From a plasmid: DNA of 64,000 nucleotides. The stretch lies in the sequence record NZ_CP154590.1, one strand, 5' to 3'. Shown here in pieces: positions 1 through 6,000 of this stretch. The position numbers are program-made. Numbering within the stretch: the first letter of the stretch is position 1; every line of letters begins with the position of its first letter.

Positions 1-3000
1 AATACGCAGACACGTTTTTCGCGTCTTCGCGTGTAAAAGCGCCCAACGGAAGCAGTGGCGCAGGAGCATTGACGACTTCGCCATTCAGCAGCGCCGCCAG
101 CGCATGATCCTCAGCCGTAGGCTGCCGTAATGACTCAGGCTGATTCAGAAAATCCTTCAACGATTTGCACATCACAAAACCCCTCTGGTCTGGTTTTCAG
201 AGGCAAAGCCTCTCCTGCCGTCCTCTTTCTGGTGTTTTCACACACTGCGGAGGACCTTTCCGCGAGAGCGTAACGGGCACGGCCCGGTGAAGCTGTCCAG
301 GATTAGCGGGAAATTTATTCCGGCTCGTCCGGAAAAAATTTGCTGATAAAGCCCCGGCGGTCCTGGCCAGCAAGACGGGTTGTGGCGGTATCAGCGACCG
401 GAAAGGCACTCAGCAGGGAATGAACGCAGAGGAAGTGGCGGGAGAGAGCCGGCAACGTCAACAACGTTGCCCCTTACACCCCGGAACGGGGTGCATCGAG
501 CGCAGGAACGGCGCGACAGGGCGGCGCGACCGGAACGGTCGCTGCAAGCCAGCCTTTGACGTTGCGACAGCCTGGGATGGAAACCCGCTGCCCGAAGGTT
601 TACCGGAGGGCCGGGCAGAGACAGCGCAGCTGGCTCGGTGCGAAGCATGACAGCCCCGGTTCCCGAAGGGAAGTCGCCCGGGTAAACCAGCCCGTGGAAA
701 AAAAGTATCTGAAAGCCCCGGTTTTTATCGTTCTGGTTATGGTTCTGGCCACGCGGTCCACGCCCACGCCCACGCCCACGCCCACGCCCACGCCCACGCC
801 CACGCCCACGCAGGTCAGCATGTTTCAGAAACGACAGCAGGAAAAGCAGATTTCAGAACTGATTCATTACCGGCTTCACCGGCGGAGGGAATGCGCCGCA
901 GGCGCTTTCCCCTGCCGTCATCCCGCAGGGATGACAGGGTTTTCCCGCGCGCGAACAGGCGGCTCATTGGCCGCCTCCGGGACTAATATTTAACTTTTTG
1001 CTGGATAAACTGGCCGCCGATAAAAAGTTGCTCGCGACGAGTCAACAAATCACAAATATCGTCAAGGAGCATTGGCGTCGTTATAGGTCTGAGGCCTAAT
1101 TCCCTGCGGCGTTCGTTTACCAGAGTTTTGTAGTGTTTCAGAATTTTGCGTGTTTCAGGTGTCATTTTCATAGGGAACCTTTTTCCGGCAGGGTTTCCCC
1201 TGCCTTATCTGAATTAGCGACGAAAAACATAGCCATCAATGAAGTTGAAAGTGTCGATAAACAAATCACGGGCAAACGCGTCATAGTCAAAGTAGCCGCG
1301 CAGGCTCTCAGGGATAGCCGCCAGCAGGCTGTGTTCGTTCACGTAGTCCACAGCAAAATCTTCTTCGCTCACGGCCTCGCCATAGTAGGCGTCTTCGAAC
1401 GCGTCAAAGTCGCATTCGCCGCTGTATTCGGCCCACGCGATAAATGCCGCGTCCTTACCTACATCCTTCGCCTGTTTGTAGGCATCGATGAAATCCCAGT
1501 CCACAGAGCTTTCAGAGGCAAACTGAGAAGGAATGCCTTCCCAGTCCTGAAACATCAGTTCCGGGTCATGCTCATTCGCGTGGAGCGCGTGGCAGGCTTC
1601 CAGAAAGTCTTCTTTCTCGTCGAAATCGGTCAAATCAAACCATTTTCCGGCCAGGCTGCCACAGTTGTATTTGTGATAAGTGCCAACGTATACCGCCGGG
1701 GTGGTGGTGCTGATAGTGTTCATGGGTGTTCCCTCCATAGTCCAGGTTATCTGAGTACCGGCTTACGCCGTGCCGACACGACAGCCCGACGAAAAGCGGA
1801 GGATGCAAGGTCGGAAGCGGAGGCCGCAGCGCAGATAAAGCAGAGGCGGTCTGGACGGTTTTTCTGCGAATTTTTGAGCAGAAAAACAACGGGAAGAACG
1901 CCGATAATCATCAAAAATAACTGCGACCGGGTGACGGTGGAGGTGGCGCCAGCCACGTGCCTTGCATACGCAGCGGTCGGGCTAAAGTGAAGGCACGGCG
2001 TTAGCCGCAGACCGCACGAAATCTCATCCCGCGCGCGCCCGTAACAGCGTGGAGGTCGCGCTGGTATAGCGGAGCAGCGCGACATCCGATTCCTGTTCAG
2101 AACTGCGGGGCAATCTGCCCCGCCCGTCGGTCACGCAGCAATCCGGATTCCGGAGAATGACCGCATCATCGCGTCAATTTCGACGCGGGCCTCGCTGACC
2201 GCATCACGTAACCAGCGGCGCTCAAACCATACGCGTGATGGGCTGTCCGGGTGACGCAGCGCGAACGGTACGTCCGTGACACCAACAACGCGACCGCGAC
2301 ATTCGAGACGGATCTGGAGGCGACGAAACGTTTCCTGCCCGTCGAGGACGGCTTTCAGGCGCGCGTCGAGAGTGTCGTTATCCCACTCGGTATCATCGCT
2401 TCCGGCTTCCACTTCAATCACGGAGAGCGTGAAGTTGCGCGTCCGGCGGGTAAACACCAGAGGATCAGCAGCAGGACGCAGGGCTTCTGTCAGGCGGTAT
2501 CCGGCAGCGGCGACACAGCTACAGACATGGTTGATTTCGTCTCGCAGGGCTTTCAGGAGGCACAGGATTTGTTTTACCGACATCCCGGCAGGACAGTTAT
2601 CGTATTCCAGCGAAATCGTGCCAGCGTGGGCTTTGCGGTGGCCCAGCGAGTTGCGGTAAAGACGAACAATCAGATCGCTCCCGCCAACTAATGGCAGCAG
2701 TTCATTCAGTGCGCTATCCGGCATCAGGCCACGCAGCGCAATTTCAGGCAACAGGCGCAGCAGATCGGACGCCCCCAGTTGGCCATAGAAAGCGACGCCT
2801 TCCCCACGCGAATAATTCAGGCTGGTATCGATATCCATCGTGGCTGGCCAGCCACGGGCAACCAGCGTGTTACGGGTGTGACGGTGCATAAAGCGATAAG
2901 CGGTGGTCATAGTTTTCTCCTTGTCTCGACGCGGCGACTGCTTCGCCGTGCCGATACGACAGCCCGACGATCCGCGGGAAATGCAAGGGCGGAACCGGAG

Positions 3001-6000
3001 GCCGCAGCGCAGATAAAAGCAGAAACGGTCTGGACGGTTATCGAGCGAAACCTGAGCGAGAGAACGACGGGAAGAACGTTGAAAAACATAAAAAATTTAC
3101 TGCGACCGGGCGATGGTGGAGATGGCCCGGCCATGTCCCTTGCATTAACCGCAGTCGGGCTATAGTGGAGGCACGGCGTTGACACCCGCCGCGACACCGG
3201 CGCGGCATAAAAAGCGGAGTCCACGACATCCTTATGGCTGATTTGGCGGGCTGACAATGCAGCCCGGCCACGGTTAGCGGGTGAATTCGTCCCAGTGTTC
3301 GTTGAACTGATTCTGAACCCGCGGGCTTGTCAGATCACCGGTAACAACCCAGGCATCCAGGAATTTAAGCTCCTGCAGGATAGAACTTTCAACATCATCA
3401 AGCAGTGTGATGCTGTTAAACCAGACCGACTTTCCGGAACGATAAGCCCATCGGCAGCCATCACTCTCTTCCAGGCATTCCTGCCACCAGGTTCTCCCCA
3501 TATAAACAACCCCGGCTTCCGCCAGCGCCAGACTCTCCGCCTGGATCAGGAAATATGCCGGAAACTCAAGATCAGAAACTTCGATATCGACGCCAATCAA
3601 CCAGGTATTCATTATTTCTTTGCCTCTTCAATCGCCCACTGCAGGTGATCCCAGTTGAAACCGATATTGGCATCATGGCATTCATCAGCGAGTGCCATCG
3701 CAGCCTCAATCGTCTCGTTGTCCAGCGTGTTATCGAGCGAAAGGAAATCGTCGGCCAGCCAGAACGTCCCTGTACAAAGTGCATCCAGAGGATGTTGCTG
3801 CAATCTGGCAATCATCCCCGATACAGTCATTTCACGACGCCACAGACCAGGTGTCGGGAAAACTGCGTTGGCCACATCAAACCACTCCCAGTCTCCTGGC
3901 GGTACCGGCCATTTCACCATTTCGGTCTGAACGCCTGGTAGCCGGGACAGACGCTCAAGGATCTCCCCCAGGGAAAACTTATGGCCACTTACATCGTCAC
4001 TGGCCAGACAGTGGCCATTGAGAAACACCGCATGCTGGCCATCATCCAGCGTAATACACGTCAGCTTAAACATATTTCCCTCCTTAACCCGGCACCCATC
4101 TGCGCCGTGCCGACACGACAGCCCGACGATCAGTGGTTAATGCAAGGGCGCCAGCAAGGCCGGTAGCCGGTAATAGCAGAGGCGTTCCGAACGGGTTTTC
4201 CGTGAAAATTGAGCGGAAAACCGACGGAAGGAACGACGATAAGACGTTAAATCACAGGCGGCCGGGTGCAGCTGGCGGCGCAGCTTCCCTTGCATTCACC
4301 ACAGTCGGGCTATAGTGAAGGCACGGCGCACCCATGCCTGAAGATGGGATAACCAGACGCTGCCGGTTCAATACCGGCAGTGGATGGCTGGGGAGAGATG
4401 ATGAGCCCCGGTTTCCCGGGGACGTCTTCAGGAAAAGCTGGAGGTTAATTCCCGATCGTGGATGATACGCTGGCGTACCTCGTCAGCCAGAGCATGAAGC
4501 GCTTTCAGCGGTAGCCAATGGCGTACTGGCGCTCCCGGACGAATAATGCAAATGCCGGCGCTGCGGTCACCTTCGCGGACCATATCAAAATCACGGTAAA
4601 TCGCGAGGCCAACGGCAACAACTGCGGCCCCGTGGTGAAAAATTTCTGTCAGCCATAGTTGCTGTTGTTCAGCATCCGGGCGCATCAGCGGCGGCATATC
4701 ATTCCACGCTTCACCAAAAACCCAGAAGTGGCGTGTCTGGCGCTCAAAAATATTAATCCCTTCATACTGGGCTCCGGTCATGTCGTTAATAATGCCGGCA
4801 TCAATGAAGATCTGACGGCACAGGACCATCAAATCGGCTTCAATCGCTTCAGTCAGGCCAATACAGATCGGGTTCGCCTCCTCAAAATCAACCCGAACAC
4901 AAGGATCACCTTTCAGGATTTCGCCGCTGACGCTTGCACACAGGTTGAGATCACTGCACATCTGCTGCAGGCCATGGACCGCACGGGTATCAAGATGGCC
5001 ACGTGAAGCAATCGCCGGCAGCATCGCCATAATAGATTCGGTAGTGACATGGCCCGAAATAGTGAAGCAATAACAGTTTGCATCAGGCTGGACAACGACT
5101 GACGACGGCCAGTTGTTTTCTGACAGGATCTGACGGCTGCGGGTTGGTGCAAGAGTCATATAAAGATTCATAGGGTACTCCTTCGTTTGATTTACCGGGC
5201 TTCTTCTGCCGTAGCTTTTACGTACGGGAGGATATCTCCCGCCATAAGCGACAGGCGGCAACGTGCCATCAGGCAAAAATCAAGTTCCGGAGGCAAAGCC
5301 GCAGCGCAAGCGACCAGAGGGAGTGCGAACGGGTGCAGCAGCAGGCGACTTTATTTTTGCCGGCACGGTGCAACTGTTTAAGCGATGGCTGGAGATAATC
5401 TGACTGCAATAGAGCAGCAAAGTGACTTCATTGGATATACCCACATCGTTATCCCCCGATTCTGTGGATAAGTAACCCAGCTCTCAACGAGTGCAAGGTA
5501 CCACATCACCGGTGGAGTTTTTCCAGGAACTACAGAGGGTTAAAGGCAGCAAAAAATCAATACTTGAAAGTGTCTTCAATAAGGCAATAATACTGTATAT
5601 GCAAACAGTGTTATTTGAGGTGGTTATGTTTGAGTTTATACGTGCTGACAGCAATCCAGAGTTGACGCCCATCCCTCTCTATAGCGATCGCTGCCAGGCT
5701 GGGTTTCCCTCACCGGCCCAGGACTACGTGGAGGCCGAATTAGACCTGAACCAGTACTGTATATCGCGGCCCAGCTCAACCTACTTTGTACGAGCTATCG
5801 GCAACTCGATGACCGACATCGGCCTGCATTCGGGCGACTTGATGATCGTCGATAAAGCCGAACAGGCTCAGCACGGAGACATCGTCATAGCTGAGATAGA
5901 GGGAGAGTTCACGGTTAAGAGATTGCTGCTGAGGCCACGGCCTGGACTGCAGGCGATGAACCCAGCCTACCCAACTCTATGGCCAGACCCGGAGAACCTG

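What the first reader, a model, noticed from the sequence alone, without database searches (positions are those of the whole stretch)
1214..5480. Three tandem Frpo/ssi-like ssDNA promoter hairpins, each heading a leading-region operon; unknown genes are candidate anti-defence factors
- Three ~230-bp units (1766-2000, 2944-3178, 4103-4328) share the bounding inverted repeat CGCCGTGCCGAyACGACAGCCCGAC ... GTCGGGCTAwAGTGrAGGCACGGCG and a conserved core.
- Each lies immediately upstream, in - strand sense, of a gene block: ardA, the 259-aa gene, and the coupled 153/112-aa gene pair.
- A fourth, degenerate core fragment sits at 5277-5400 upstream of the 248-aa gene.
- In IncI/IncF leading regions such hairpins fold in the transferred single strand and drive early expression of anti-defence genes such as ardA.
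- By position, the uncharacterised genes are plausible novel anti-restriction or anti-defence proteins.
Basis: partly seen in the sequence, partly recalled or inferred. Interest (0 to 1): 0.7.

Follow-up and report, generated by a model that had tools for sequence, protein, structure and literature searches.

The report
Tandem class 2 single-strand DNA promoters
Three copies of a recently described hairpin promoter, which works only while a conjugating plasmid is still single-stranded, sit in front of the anti-restriction gene ardA and two blocks of unknown genes; the kind is known, but the position marks those genes as early establishment genes worth testing.

Summary
Units 1766-2000, 2944-3178 and 4103-4328 are real, homologous, about 230-nt imperfect hairpins, lying 43, 34 and 30 nt upstream of ardA, a 259-aa gene and an overlapping 153/112-aa gene pair (all on the - strand). 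The window is the leading region of a NikB (MOBP) Enterobacter/Citrobacter plasmid, bounded by umuDC.

The units are not homologues of classical Frpo/ssi (class 1). They are full-length homologues of the "class 2" ssDNA promoters (F ssp2, also called "Frpo3"; pESBL P-ardA and P-klcA). Those were described in 2024-2026, with start sites mapped by 5' RACE and, for F ssp2, a roadblock role in complementary-strand synthesis.

Across 33 dereplicated family members:
- 23 of 50 stem pairs show compensatory changes.
- G·T pairs outnumber A·C 67 to 5.
- The transferred strand folds better than its complement in 33 of 33.
- TTG...TAnnnT sits on the non-template arm, with A-11 to -9 in an internal loop.

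Most family members head klcA, ardA or methylase genes. The unknown proteins have no informative homologue or fold match, so "anti-defence" remains a positional hypothesis. The fourth element is a conserved hairpin but not a recognisable family member. Verdict: new members of a known kind, moderate-to-low interest.

The parts
1766..2000 (+). Class 2 ssDNA promoter hairpin, unit 1 (long form, 235 nt), read on the transferred (+) strand. Basal stem 1766-1774 / 1992-2000. -35 TTGCAT at 1962-1967. -10 TAAAGT at 1983-1988. Predicted +1 at A1995, which corresponds to template T1771. Drives ardA.
   Evidence: Repeats; fold -69.1 kcal/mol, z -7.2; pattern match; profile E=5e-53; alignment to pESBL and F class 2 elements.
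2944..3178 (+). Class 2 ssDNA promoter hairpin, unit 2 (235 nt). -35 TTGCAT at 3140-3145. -10 TATAGT at 3161-3166. Predicted +1 at A3173, which corresponds to template T2949. Drives the 259-aa gene.
   Evidence: -51.7 kcal/mol, z -3.1; E=4e-51.
4103..4328 (+). Class 2 ssDNA promoter hairpin, unit 3 (226 nt). -35 TTGCAT at 4290-4295. -10 TATAGT at 4311-4316. Predicted +1 at A4323, which corresponds to template T4108. Drives the 153/112-aa pair.
   Evidence: -72.2 kcal/mol, z -8.2; E=4e-45.
1214..1723 (-). ardA, an anti-restriction DNA mimic (169 aa, pI 4.07, net charge -26). First gene after unit 1.
   Evidence: Pfam PF07275, E=6.7e-31; annotated as ArdA in CP035635.1; charge.
2131..2910 (-). 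259-aa protein of unknown function, first gene after unit 2. Distant (26-31% identity, full-length) relative of the roughly 258-aa protein encoded just before the class 2 promoter in F, pESBL and pKPHS2. Also a distant paralogue of the 247-aa protein.
3612..4073 (-). 153-aa acidic protein (pI 4.5, net -14) of unknown function, first gene after unit 3. It has two modules, each of which also occurs alone as a 75-90-aa protein.
   Evidence: Homologues occur in 682 plasmid records, all annotated as hypothetical.
3274..3612 (-). 112-aa acidic protein (pI 4.2, net -12) of unknown function. Its start overlaps the stop of the 153-aa gene (TAATG). Elsewhere the two families occur independently.
4428..5171 (-). 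247-aa protein of unknown function, a distant paralogue of the 259-aa protein. Last gene of the island before umuDC.
   Evidence: phrog_8919, E=1e-6; weak BLASTP to the 259-aa protein; homologue in L069.
5233..5400 (+). Fourth, different hairpin. It shares the 40-nt apical core (AAGCCGCAGCGC...GCGAACGGGTG) with class 2/3 elements but has other basal arms and no clear -35/-10. It is conserved in two other plasmids.
   Evidence: D7, D9; no profile hit.

Best explanation
The three units are members of the class 2 family of single-strand DNA promoters (F ssp2, also called 'Frpo3'; pESBL P-ardA and P-klcA).

**Proposed mechanism**
1. During conjugation the + strand of this window enters the recipient 5' end first, because oriT lies to the left, next to nikA.
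2. Each unit then snaps back into a roughly 230-nt imperfect hairpin.
3. The hairpin's stem rebuilds a sigma-70 promoter. The 3' arm supplies the non-template TTGCAT(-35)-15 nt-TAnAGT(-10). A-11 to A-9 are held unpaired in a 3x3 internal loop, and the 5' arm is the template.
4. RNA polymerase starts about 6 nt inside the basal stem and runs leftwards out of the hairpin. It transcribes ardA, the 259-aa gene and the 153/112-aa pair before the complementary strand exists.
5. Synthesis of the complementary strand destroys the hairpins and switches these genes off.
6. Because all three units are the long form, like F ssp2, each probably also stalls complementary-strand synthesis until UvrD unwinds it. 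That would prolong the single-stranded window.

**Shown here**: homology, conserved structure, strand specificity, promoter geometry and genomic position.

**Shown by others for homologues**: transcription start sites, early induction, and the roadblock.

**Inferred for this plasmid**: activity, start sites, the roadblock, and the identity of the transferred strand.
For: **Context**
- The window is 100% identical to E. cloacae plasmid CP035635.1.
- The nikA/nikB relaxase genes and oriT lie 11 kb to the left.
- All intervening genes (psiB, parB, hok, a methylase, ardA and others) point towards oriT.
- The island ends at a divergent umuDC. This is the layout reported for anti-defence islands and the mirror image of pESBL.

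**Homology**
- The units align end to end with the pESBL hairpins 5' of ardA and klcA, and with candidates Frpo'4, Frpo*1 and Frpo*3 of Samuel et al. 2024.
- F ssp2, upstream of yfgB/ardB, was not used to build the profile. It matches over the full length at E=9e-41.
- Published function of the homologues: early induction and 5' RACE start sites; identification as Frpo3; roadblock and restriction-evasion phenotypes of an ssp2 deletion.

**Structure (33 dereplicated long-form units from many Enterobacterales)**
- 50 consensus pairs, 23 of them with compensatory changes.
- 96.4% of cells are paired, against 30-40% when partners are slid.
- Covariation score 0.312 against 0.129 in shuffles; 0 of 500 shuffles reach it.

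**Strand specificity**
- 67 G·T cells against 5 A·C cells.
- The given strand is more stable than its complement in 33 of 33 units, mean -56.9 vs -48.4 kcal/mol, Wilcoxon p=5e-7.

**Promoter**
- TTG of the -35 is paired. T-12 and T-7 of the -10 are paired, while A-11 to -9 lie in an internal loop.
- In 18 right arms found by profile that fail my search pattern, and so were not selected for it, all 18 keep TAnnnT and 14 keep TTG, while the middle bases vary.

**No alternative promoter**
- The sigma-70 scan finds no dsDNA promoter on the - strand in the three intergenic regions.

**Cargo**
- The first ORF after 129 family members is KlcA (45), a DNA methylase (32), ArdA (31) or the 153-aa family (12).
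- Median distance from the arm to the start codon is about 40 nt.
Against: - There are no expression data for this plasmid.
- The -35 is weak (TTGCAT, 3 of 6). The spacer on the non-template arm is 15 nt, against about 20 nt on the template arm, so promoter geometry depends on bulges that I cannot model.
- Unit 2 folds less convincingly (z -3.1, diffuse ensemble).
- The transferred strand was assigned from gene and relaxase layout, not from a mapped nic site.
- The family pattern and profile were derived partly from these sequences. Conservation of some right-arm bases is therefore partly by ascertainment; only partly removes this.
- The roadblock role is extrapolated from a single element, F ssp2, in a preprint.
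Confidence: 0.85

Rival explanations
1. The units are members of the classical Frpo/ssi family (class 1: F Frpo1/2, ColIb ssi1-3).
For: They share the general design: a long hairpin in the leading region with -35/-10 on the stem, placed upstream of T-strand-templated genes.
Against: - The class 2 profiles hit only the ssp2/class 2 and ssp3/class 3 loci of F and pESBL. They do not hit the Frpo1/2 or ssi loci at E<=10.
- The published class 1 sequences share no arms or core with the units.
- A separate class-1-like element sits at window 208-455.
Confidence: 0.03
2. The hairpins are primarily DNA-processing signals, and promoter activity is secondary or absent here. On this reading they are priming sites, or programmed pause sites, for complementary-strand synthesis.
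For: - F ssp2 stalls complementary-strand synthesis at the base of its stem, and UvrD resolves the stall.
- Class 1 transcripts prime DNA synthesis.
- The near-invariant apical boxes GCCGCAGCGC and GCGAnCGGGTG are conserved beyond what base pairing requires. This could reflect factor binding.
Against: - TTG and TAnnnT are conserved at promoter spacing, with free middle bases.
- The units sit about 40 nt from start codons.
- 5' RACE start sites are mapped in the pESBL homologues.
- An F ssp2 deletion loses anti-restriction, and this is partly rescued by another promoter.
- The two roles are not exclusive.
Confidence: 0.08
3. They are double-strand regulatory repeats, comparable to the IncN CUP elements: a conventional promoter plus an operator for a plasmid repressor, reiterated before each leading-region operon.
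For: The repeated conserved upstream element before ardA-type genes, with the island ending at mucAB/umuDC, is also the R46 layout.
Against: - R46 CUP repeats show no similarity to the class 2 or class 3 profiles.
- There is no sigma-70 match in the gene direction on dsDNA.
- Compensatory changes and the 67:5 G·T to A·C asymmetry show selection on an intramolecular fold of one strand. A duplex operator would not produce this.
Confidence: 0.02
4. They are miniature mobile elements with terminal inverted repeats, or structured RNAs (an mRNA leader or an antisense RNA).
For: They have 25-nt terminal inverted repeats around a roughly 185-nt core, occur in multiple copies and are widely distributed.
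Against: - The flanks show no direct target duplications; the flanking bases extend the stem instead.
- Orientation and distance to the downstream start codon are fixed.
- The mRNA would carry the complementary, less stable sequence, and only about 6 nt of the hairpin.
- There is no Rfam match.
- No promoter is seen that could make a + sense RNA.
Confidence: 0.02

Closest known systems
Class 2 ssDNA promoters: pESBL (IncI1) hairpins 5' of ardA and klcA (Nucleic Acids Res 2025, PMC12672017), F plasmid ssp2 (bioRxiv 10.64898/2026.01.09.698686), also called 'Frpo3' (bioRxiv 10.1101/2025.04.03.647016)
   Same: - Full-length sequence homology.
- The same basal stem (GCCGTGcC / GgCACGGC).
- The same TTGCAT-15-TAnnnT on the 3' arm with a bubble at -11 to -9.
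- The same apical boxes.
- The same position, about 40 nt before anti-restriction genes templated by the transferred strand.
- The long form, 217-233 nt.
   Different: - There are three copies in tandem within 2.6 kb, against one in F and two, 7 kb apart, in pESBL.
- The host is a NikB (MOBP) Citrobacter/Enterobacter plasmid.
- Two of the three head genes that are not klcA, ardA or a methylase. That was seen in only 3 of 63 long-form units sampled by the pattern.
- No experimental data exist for these copies.
Class 3 ssDNA promoter (pESBL M.EcoGIX promoter; F ssp3)
   Same: Shares the basal arms, the promoter module and the apical boxes. My short-form profile (168-174 nt units) matches pESBL 3279-3437 and F 4664-4822 over the full length at E=3e-15 and 2e-14, and the long-form profile hits their right arms at E=5e-9 and 3e-8.
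   Different: It lacks about 55 nt of the apical part. F ssp3 is reported to have no roadblock activity. The source paper treats it as unrelated to class 2, whereas the profiles indicate common ancestry.
Class 1 ssDNA promoters: F Frpo1/Frpo2 (Masai & Arai 1997; Couturier 2023, PMC9849209), ColIb-P9 ssi1-3
   Same: The same principle: a hairpin in the transferred strand rebuilds a sigma-70 promoter, giving early, self-limiting expression of leading genes.
   Different: There is no detectable sequence similarity to the three units. A class-1-like element is present separately at window 208-455.
Candidates Frpo'4, Frpo*1 and Frpo*3 of Samuel et al. 2024 (Nature, PMC11541004, Supplementary Table 2)
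   Same: They align with the units over arms, core and promoter. Frpo'4 is the long form; Frpo*1 and Frpo*3 are the short form.
   Different: They come from an insect-gut metagenome contig and were proposed from structure and consensus only.
IncN CUP (conserved upstream) repeats of pKM101/R46. That these are the CUP elements of Delver & Belogurov 1997 is from my own knowledge.
   Same: A reiterated conserved element before ardA, ardB and neighbouring genes, with the island ending at mucAB.
   Different: No sequence similarity. From memory, they are described as dsDNA promoters under ArdK/ArdR control.

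Membership tests
Class 2 ssDNA promoter (ssp2 / 'Frpo3') | Sequence homology over the whole element to the pESBL P-ardA / P-klcA and F ssp2 hairpins | tested here: met
   Alignment A1. The same profile gives E=5e-53 to 4e-45 for the units and E=9e-41 for F ssp2, which was not in the profile.
Class 2 ssDNA promoter (ssp2 / 'Frpo3') | A long imperfect hairpin formed by the transferred strand, under selection | tested here: met
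   Folds. 23 of 50 pairs show compensatory change and 96.4% of cells are paired. G·T to A·C is 67:5. The T strand is more stable than its complement in 33 of 33 units.
Class 2 ssDNA promoter (ssp2 / 'Frpo3') | -35 and -10 hexamers rebuilt on the stem, on the arm that is non-template for the downstream genes | tested here: met
   TTGCAT-15-TA(A/T)AGT lies on the 3' arm of all three units, with A-11 to -9 in an internal loop. TAnnnT is kept in 18 of 18 arms not selected by the pattern. The -35 is weak and the spacer is short.
Class 2 ssDNA promoter (ssp2 / 'Frpo3') | Located in the leading region, just upstream of genes transcribed towards oriT | tested here: met
   nikA/nikB and oriT lie 11-16 kb to the left and all genes between them are on the - strand. 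The arms lie 30-43 nt from the start codons.
Class 2 ssDNA promoter (ssp2 / 'Frpo3') | Transcription starts in the stem, in recipients, before the complementary strand is made | not testable with these tools
   Shown for the pESBL homologues by RNA-seq and 5' RACE. Only predicted here (+1 at template 1771, 2949 and 4108).
Class 2 ssDNA promoter (ssp2 / 'Frpo3') | Transient block to complementary-strand synthesis, resolved by UvrD | not testable with these tools
   Shown for F ssp2 only. The units share its long form.
Class 1 Frpo/ssi | Sequence homology to F Frpo1/2 or ColIb ssi1-3 | tested here: not met
   The class 2 and class 3 profiles do not hit the Frpo/ssi loci of F or pESBL at E<=10. 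The published sequences show no shared blocks.
Anti-defence protein (259-, 153-, 112- and 247-aa ORFs) | Homology or fold similarity to a known anti-restriction, anti-CRISPR or other anti-defence family | tested here: not met
   - No Pfam or NCBIfam match.
- Only PHROGs of unknown function.
- No PDB sequence relative for the 153- and 259-aa proteins.
- No BFVD hit at E<=1e-3.
- Models are only pLDDT 67 and 71.
- The 112- and 247-aa proteins were not modelled.
Anti-defence protein (259-, 153-, 112- and 247-aa ORFs) | Encoded in the leading region on the T-strand-templated orientation, under an ssDNA promoter | tested here: met
   The 153-aa family is the fourth commonest first gene after such hairpins (12 of 129).
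Anti-defence protein (259-, 153-, 112- and 247-aa ORFs) | Protects incoming DNA from a defence system | not testable with these tools
   Needs conjugation or transformation assays against R-M, BREX, CRISPR and similar systems.
IncN CUP repeats | Sequence similarity to the repeats upstream of ardA, ardB, ccgAI and ccgD of R46 | tested here: not met
   No nhmmer hit in R46 at E<=1 with either profile.
MITE-like mobile element | Terminal inverted repeats flanked by target-site duplications, inserted in varied contexts and orientations | tested here: not met
   Inverted repeats are present, but the flanks are complementary to each other, not direct repeats. Orientation and distance to the start codon are fixed in 103-129 copies.

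The most novel reading that the evidence does not exclude
The island may be a cassette array in which each long-form class 2 hairpin has two roles: an ssDNA promoter, and a separate UvrD-resolved pause site. Three of them in series would then convert the leading region to duplex in steps and give graded expression times to ardA, the 259-aa gene and the 153/112-aa genes.

On this reading:
- The roughly 55-nt apical extension that separates the long form (class 2, ssp2) from the homologous short form (class 3, ssp3) would be what makes the roadblock.
- At least one of the acidic unknown proteins (153 aa, 112 aa) would be a new DNA-mimic-type or other anti-defence factor.
Probability: 0.3. Interest if true: 0.6.

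Novelty: new member of a known kind. Interest (0 to 1): 0.35.

Why it matters
- **Known kind, wider range.** ssDNA promoters decide which plasmid genes act in the first minutes after entry, when restriction and other defences decide whether a resistance plasmid establishes. These three units are class 2 promoters, which extends that class from F and IncI1 to NikB-type Citrobacter/Enterobacter CTX-M plasmids. The family also covers thousands of Klebsiella IncFII(K)/IncR plasmids and many Erwiniaceae.
- **A short list of untested genes.** The position gives a cheap, sequence-based way to nominate early genes. Here the candidates are the 153-aa family (682 plasmids, including plasmids of about 94 kb in Salmonella), the 112-aa family, and the 259/247-aa family related to a conserved F/IncI1 leading protein.
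- **Leads for people working on plasmid establishment.** Class 3 appears to be a shortened relative of class 2, and three roadblock-type hairpins sit in series. Both are concrete and testable.

Tried and rejected
- **Rfam** scan of 1-9000 at E<=1: only a spurious snoRNA hit.
- **Unknown ORFs:** Pfam and NCBIfam gave nothing. PHROGs gave only families of unknown function.
- **PDB sequence profiles** for the 153-aa and 259-aa families: nothing below E=0.09.
- **PsiA link:** a hint that the 153-aa N-module is related to PsiA (P0094 carries both) was not supported by hhalign against this plasmid's PsiA.
- **153-aa and 112-aa as an obligate pair:** rejected. In other loci each occurs without the other.
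- **Fourth element as a degenerate class 2 or class 3 copy:** no profile hit at E<=10. It is instead a separately conserved hairpin.
- **IncN CUP repeats as the same family:** rejected.
- **dsDNA sigma-70 promoters in the gene direction:** none in the three intergenic regions. The scan only allows 16-18-nt spacers.
- **Supplementary figures of PMC12672017** (exact start sites) are not held. The +1 positions given here are therefore my predictions.

Full report
**1. What is in the sequence**

- The repeat finder returns three-copy direct-repeat families that together tile 1766-2000, 2944-3178 and 4103-4328, with spacing of 1178 and 1159 nt.
- Each unit is bounded by inverted repeats of 25-32 nt, 80-85% complementary and 176-185 nt apart.
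- A right-arm pattern with 20 specified bases hits only these three places in the 64-kb window. No hit appeared in 100 shuffles, even with three mismatches allowed.
- As single-stranded DNA, the + strand of each unit folds into one long imperfect hairpin: -69.1, -51.7 and -72.2 kcal/mol, with z = -7.2, -3.1 and -8.2.
- The left arms end 43, 34 and 30 nt from the start codons of ardA (1214-1723, Pfam ArdA E=7e-31), a 259-aa ORF (2131-2910) and a 153-aa ORF (3612-4073).
- The stop of the 153-aa ORF overlaps the start of a 112-aa ORF (3274-3612) as TAATG.

**2. Context**

- The window is identical to Enterobacter cloacae plasmid CP035635.1 and about 20 Citrobacter/Enterobacter relatives.
- In that record the IncI-type relaxase genes nikA/nikB, and therefore oriT, lie about 11 kb to the left of the window.
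- Every gene between oriT and position 5171 of the window is on the - strand, that is, transcribed towards oriT. These genes are DUF945, an antirestriction gene, a methylase, hok, psiA-like, psiB, parB, DUF905, ardA and the unknown genes.
- The block ends at a divergent umuDC.
- This is the mirror image of the pESBL leading region. It is also the 'anti-defence island flanked by umu genes' layout of Samuel et al. 2024.
- The transferred strand enters 5' first and must be the template for early transcription (established knowledge, restated). The + strand of the window is therefore inferred to be the transferred strand.

**3. What the units are**

They are not relatives of classical Frpo/ssi. 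Three lines of literature and my alignments converge on a different, recently defined family.
- The supplementary table of Samuel et al. lists structure-based candidates (Frpo'4, Frpo*1, Frpo*3) from an insect-gut contig that share the arms, core and promoter of my units.
- A 2025 NAR paper on pESBL (IncI1) found six highly induced leading operons. It defined three classes of ssDNA promoter: class 1 (ssi1-3 and Frpo), class 2 (5' of ardA and klcA) and class 3 (5' of the M.EcoGIX operon). It mapped all six start sites by 5' RACE and noted that classes 2 and 3 are conserved in F.
- The same F element is called Frpo3 in one preprint and ssp2 in another. The ssp2 preprint shows that it controls the ardB homologue yfgB, that its stem stalls complementary-strand synthesis until UvrD acts, and that its deletion lowers transfer into restricting hosts.
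- I fetched pESBL and F. The window units align end to end with pESBL 14051-14274 and 7104-7327.
- A profile built without F matches F 8489-8712, immediately upstream of the antirestriction gene, over its full length at E=9e-41.
- The same profiles do not touch the Frpo1/2 or ssi loci.

**4. Is the hairpin under selection, and on which strand?**

- blastn with unit 3 finds full-length matches of about 70% identity in 3,723 plasmid records (3,101 from Klebsiella). These sit, for example, upstream of klcA-ardA in pKPHS2 and pKPC-LK30.
- The right-arm pattern finds 97 stretches in a one-genome-per-species collection. Almost all are Enterobacterales (Erwinia, Pantoea, Yersinia, Salmonella, Kosakonia and others).
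- The units come in a long form (217-233 nt) and a short form (168-174 nt).
- In 33 dereplicated long-form units, RNAalifold predicts 50 pairs, 23 of them with compensatory double changes.
- With the structure fixed, 96.4% of cells are standard pairs, against 30-40% when partners are slid by 1-3 columns. The covariation score is 0.312 against 0.129 in shuffles, and 0 of 500 shuffles reach it.
- G·T cells outnumber A·C cells 67 to 5.
- The given strand folds more stably than its complement in 33 of 33 units (mean -56.9 vs -48.4 kcal/mol, p=5e-7). The fold is therefore selected on the strand that I infer to be transferred, not on the mRNA-sense strand.

**5. Promoter anatomy**

- On the 3' arm, which is the non-template arm for leftward transcription, every unit carries TTGCAT, 15 nt, then TA(A/T)AGT.
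- The TTG is paired. T-12 and G-8/T-7 are paired. A-11 to -9 face three unpaired template bases, giving a pre-opened bubble where sigma-70 captures A-11.
- The basal 9-bp stem GGCACGGCG/CGCCGTGCC follows.
- The template arm carries about five more nucleotides than the non-template arm between the two hexamers, so the effective spacing is uncertain.
- Counting 7 nt from the -10 puts +1 at A1995, A3173 and A4323, which corresponds to template T1771, T2949 and T4108. This leaves leaders of about 35-48 nt. That is a prediction.
- My search pattern fixed TA...T, so I checked 18 distinct right arms recovered by profile but failing the pattern. All 18 keep TAnnnT with variable middle bases, and 14 keep TTG.
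- A dsDNA sigma-70 scan finds nothing in the gene direction in the three intergenic regions.

**6. What such hairpins drive**

- For 129 family members I took the first ORF after the left arm. The counts were KlcA/ArdB-like 45, DNA methylase 32, ArdA 31, the 153-aa family 12, the 259-aa family 3 and DUF1281-like 3.
- Among pattern-defined long forms, 60 of 63 head ardA, klcA or a methylase. Two of the three exceptions are units 2 and 3 of this window.

**7. The unknown proteins**

- None has a Pfam or NCBIfam match.
- The 259- and 247-aa proteins both match phrog_8919 (unknown function) and are distant paralogues.
- The 259-aa protein is 26-31% identical over its full length to the roughly 258-aa protein encoded just before the class 2 promoter in F, pESBL and pKPHS2.
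- The 153-aa family is present in 682 plasmid records, always annotated as hypothetical.
- An exhaustive profile search shows that the two halves of the 153-aa protein also occur as separate 75-90-aa proteins.
- The 153- and 112-aa proteins are acidic (pI 4.5 and 4.2, net -14 and -12). ArdA is pI 4.1, net -26.
- The two acidic genes are not an obligate pair.
- 'Anti-defence' therefore rests on position, promoter type and, weakly, charge. There is also no positive functional evidence.

**8. The fourth element**

- 5233-5400 folds (z = -2.85).
- It is 81-86% identical to elements in Dryocola and Buttiauxella plasmids, in the same relative position.
- It is more stable on the + strand in all three.
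- It shares a 40-nt apical core with class 2/3 elements. An identical copy of that core lies in a short hairpin next to oriT in the same plasmid.
- Neither family profile detects it, and its stem has no convincing -35/-10.
- A dsDNA promoter-like site (TTGAGA-17-CAGAAT, 5487-5459, - strand) overlapping a conserved DnaA-box-like TTATCCACA lies just upstream. Its role is open.

**9. Comparison and novelty**

- The units meet every sequence-testable criterion of class 2 ssDNA promoters and fail the homology criterion for class 1 and for IncN CUP repeats. They are new members of a known kind.
- Three points go slightly beyond the literature I could read:
  1. My short form, which includes pESBL class 3 and F ssp3, is homologous to class 2, although the defining paper calls class 3 unrelated.
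  2. This plasmid carries three long-form (ssp2-type, roadblock-type) hairpins in series.
  3. Two of them drive uncharacterised gene families.
- These are leads, not findings.

**10. Verdict**

- The mechanism is well grounded by homology (confidence 0.85) but untested for this plasmid.
- Interest is moderate to low (0.35). A specialist would recognise the element at once. The value lies in the candidate genes and in the long-form versus short-form and tandem-roadblock questions.

Noticed in passing
window 208-455 (+), upstream of the DUF905 gene whose start is at 172 (- strand): A class-1 (Frpo/ssi-type) long hairpin. The DNA MFE of 185-500 is -82.8 kcal/mol against -71.7 for the complement. 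It aligns with F Frpo2, the pESBL ssi upstream of ssb, and Frpo'1 of Samuel et al. It heads the DUF905-parB-psiB operon. The window therefore carries two classes of ssDNA promoter.
   Followed up: partly
window 757-812: A perfect tandem hexanucleotide repeat (CCCACG), about 9 copies, lying between the class-1 hairpin region and a 62-aa basic ORF (983-1171). No explanation.
   Followed up: no
window 5459-5487 (- strand): A DnaA-box-like TTATCCACA (5463-5471, - strand) is conserved at the equivalent place in pESBL. It is overlapped by the only sigma-70-like site found in the gene direction (TTGAGA-17-CAGAAT), upstream of the fourth hairpin and the 247-aa gene.
   Followed up: no
window 5592-5611: A LexA-box-like TACTGTATATGCAAACAGTG in front of umuD, conserved with the pESBL umuD upstream region.
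   Followed up: no
L001 5815-5960 (same plasmid, about 9 kb left of the window, next to oriT): A further short, class-3-like hairpin (CCCTTGCAT-15-CAGAGT, arms CCCGTGA/TCACGGG) upstream of the DUF945 gene. It carries a 40-nt core identical to that of the fourth element. The MFE of the intergenic region is -95.8 kcal/mol against -79.5 for the complement.
   Followed up: partly
L006 3279-3437 (pESBL) and L104 4664-4822 (F): The published class 3 / ssp3 promoters match my short-form profile over the full length (E=3e-15 and 2e-14). They share arms and promoter with class 2. Classes 2 and 3 therefore look like long and short versions of one family, differing by about 55 apical nucleotides.
   Followed up: partly
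alignment A4 columns 58-65 and 158-169 (window 1823-1830 and 1923-1934 in unit 1): The boxes GCCGCAGC and GCGAnCGGGnGA are nearly invariant across class 2, class 3 and the fourth hairpin type, although only part of them is base-paired. This is sequence-specific conservation with no assigned role; it could be a factor binding site.
   Followed up: no
window 3612-4073 (153-aa protein); P0064-P0213: Each half of the protein occurs elsewhere as a stand-alone 75-90-aa protein. One relative of the N-terminal half (P0094) also carries a PsiA Pfam domain. hhalign against this plasmid's PsiA was negative.
   Followed up: partly
L030 and L043 (Streptomyces), L053 (Leucobacter), L056 (Ferruginibacter): Short contigs in non-enterobacterial assemblies carry the hairpin pattern. 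L030, L043 and L056 also carry a 259-aa-family gene; for L043 and L056 the match statistics are nearly the same as for Escherichia ruysiae, while L030 has only a partial match. This is most likely enterobacterial plasmid contamination of those assemblies.
   Followed up: no
window 983-1171 (- strand): A 62-aa basic ORF (pI 10) directly downstream of ardA. An ORF of similar size follows ardA in pKPHS2 and pKPC-LK30. Only a sub-threshold Pfam HIND-motif hit.
   Followed up: no
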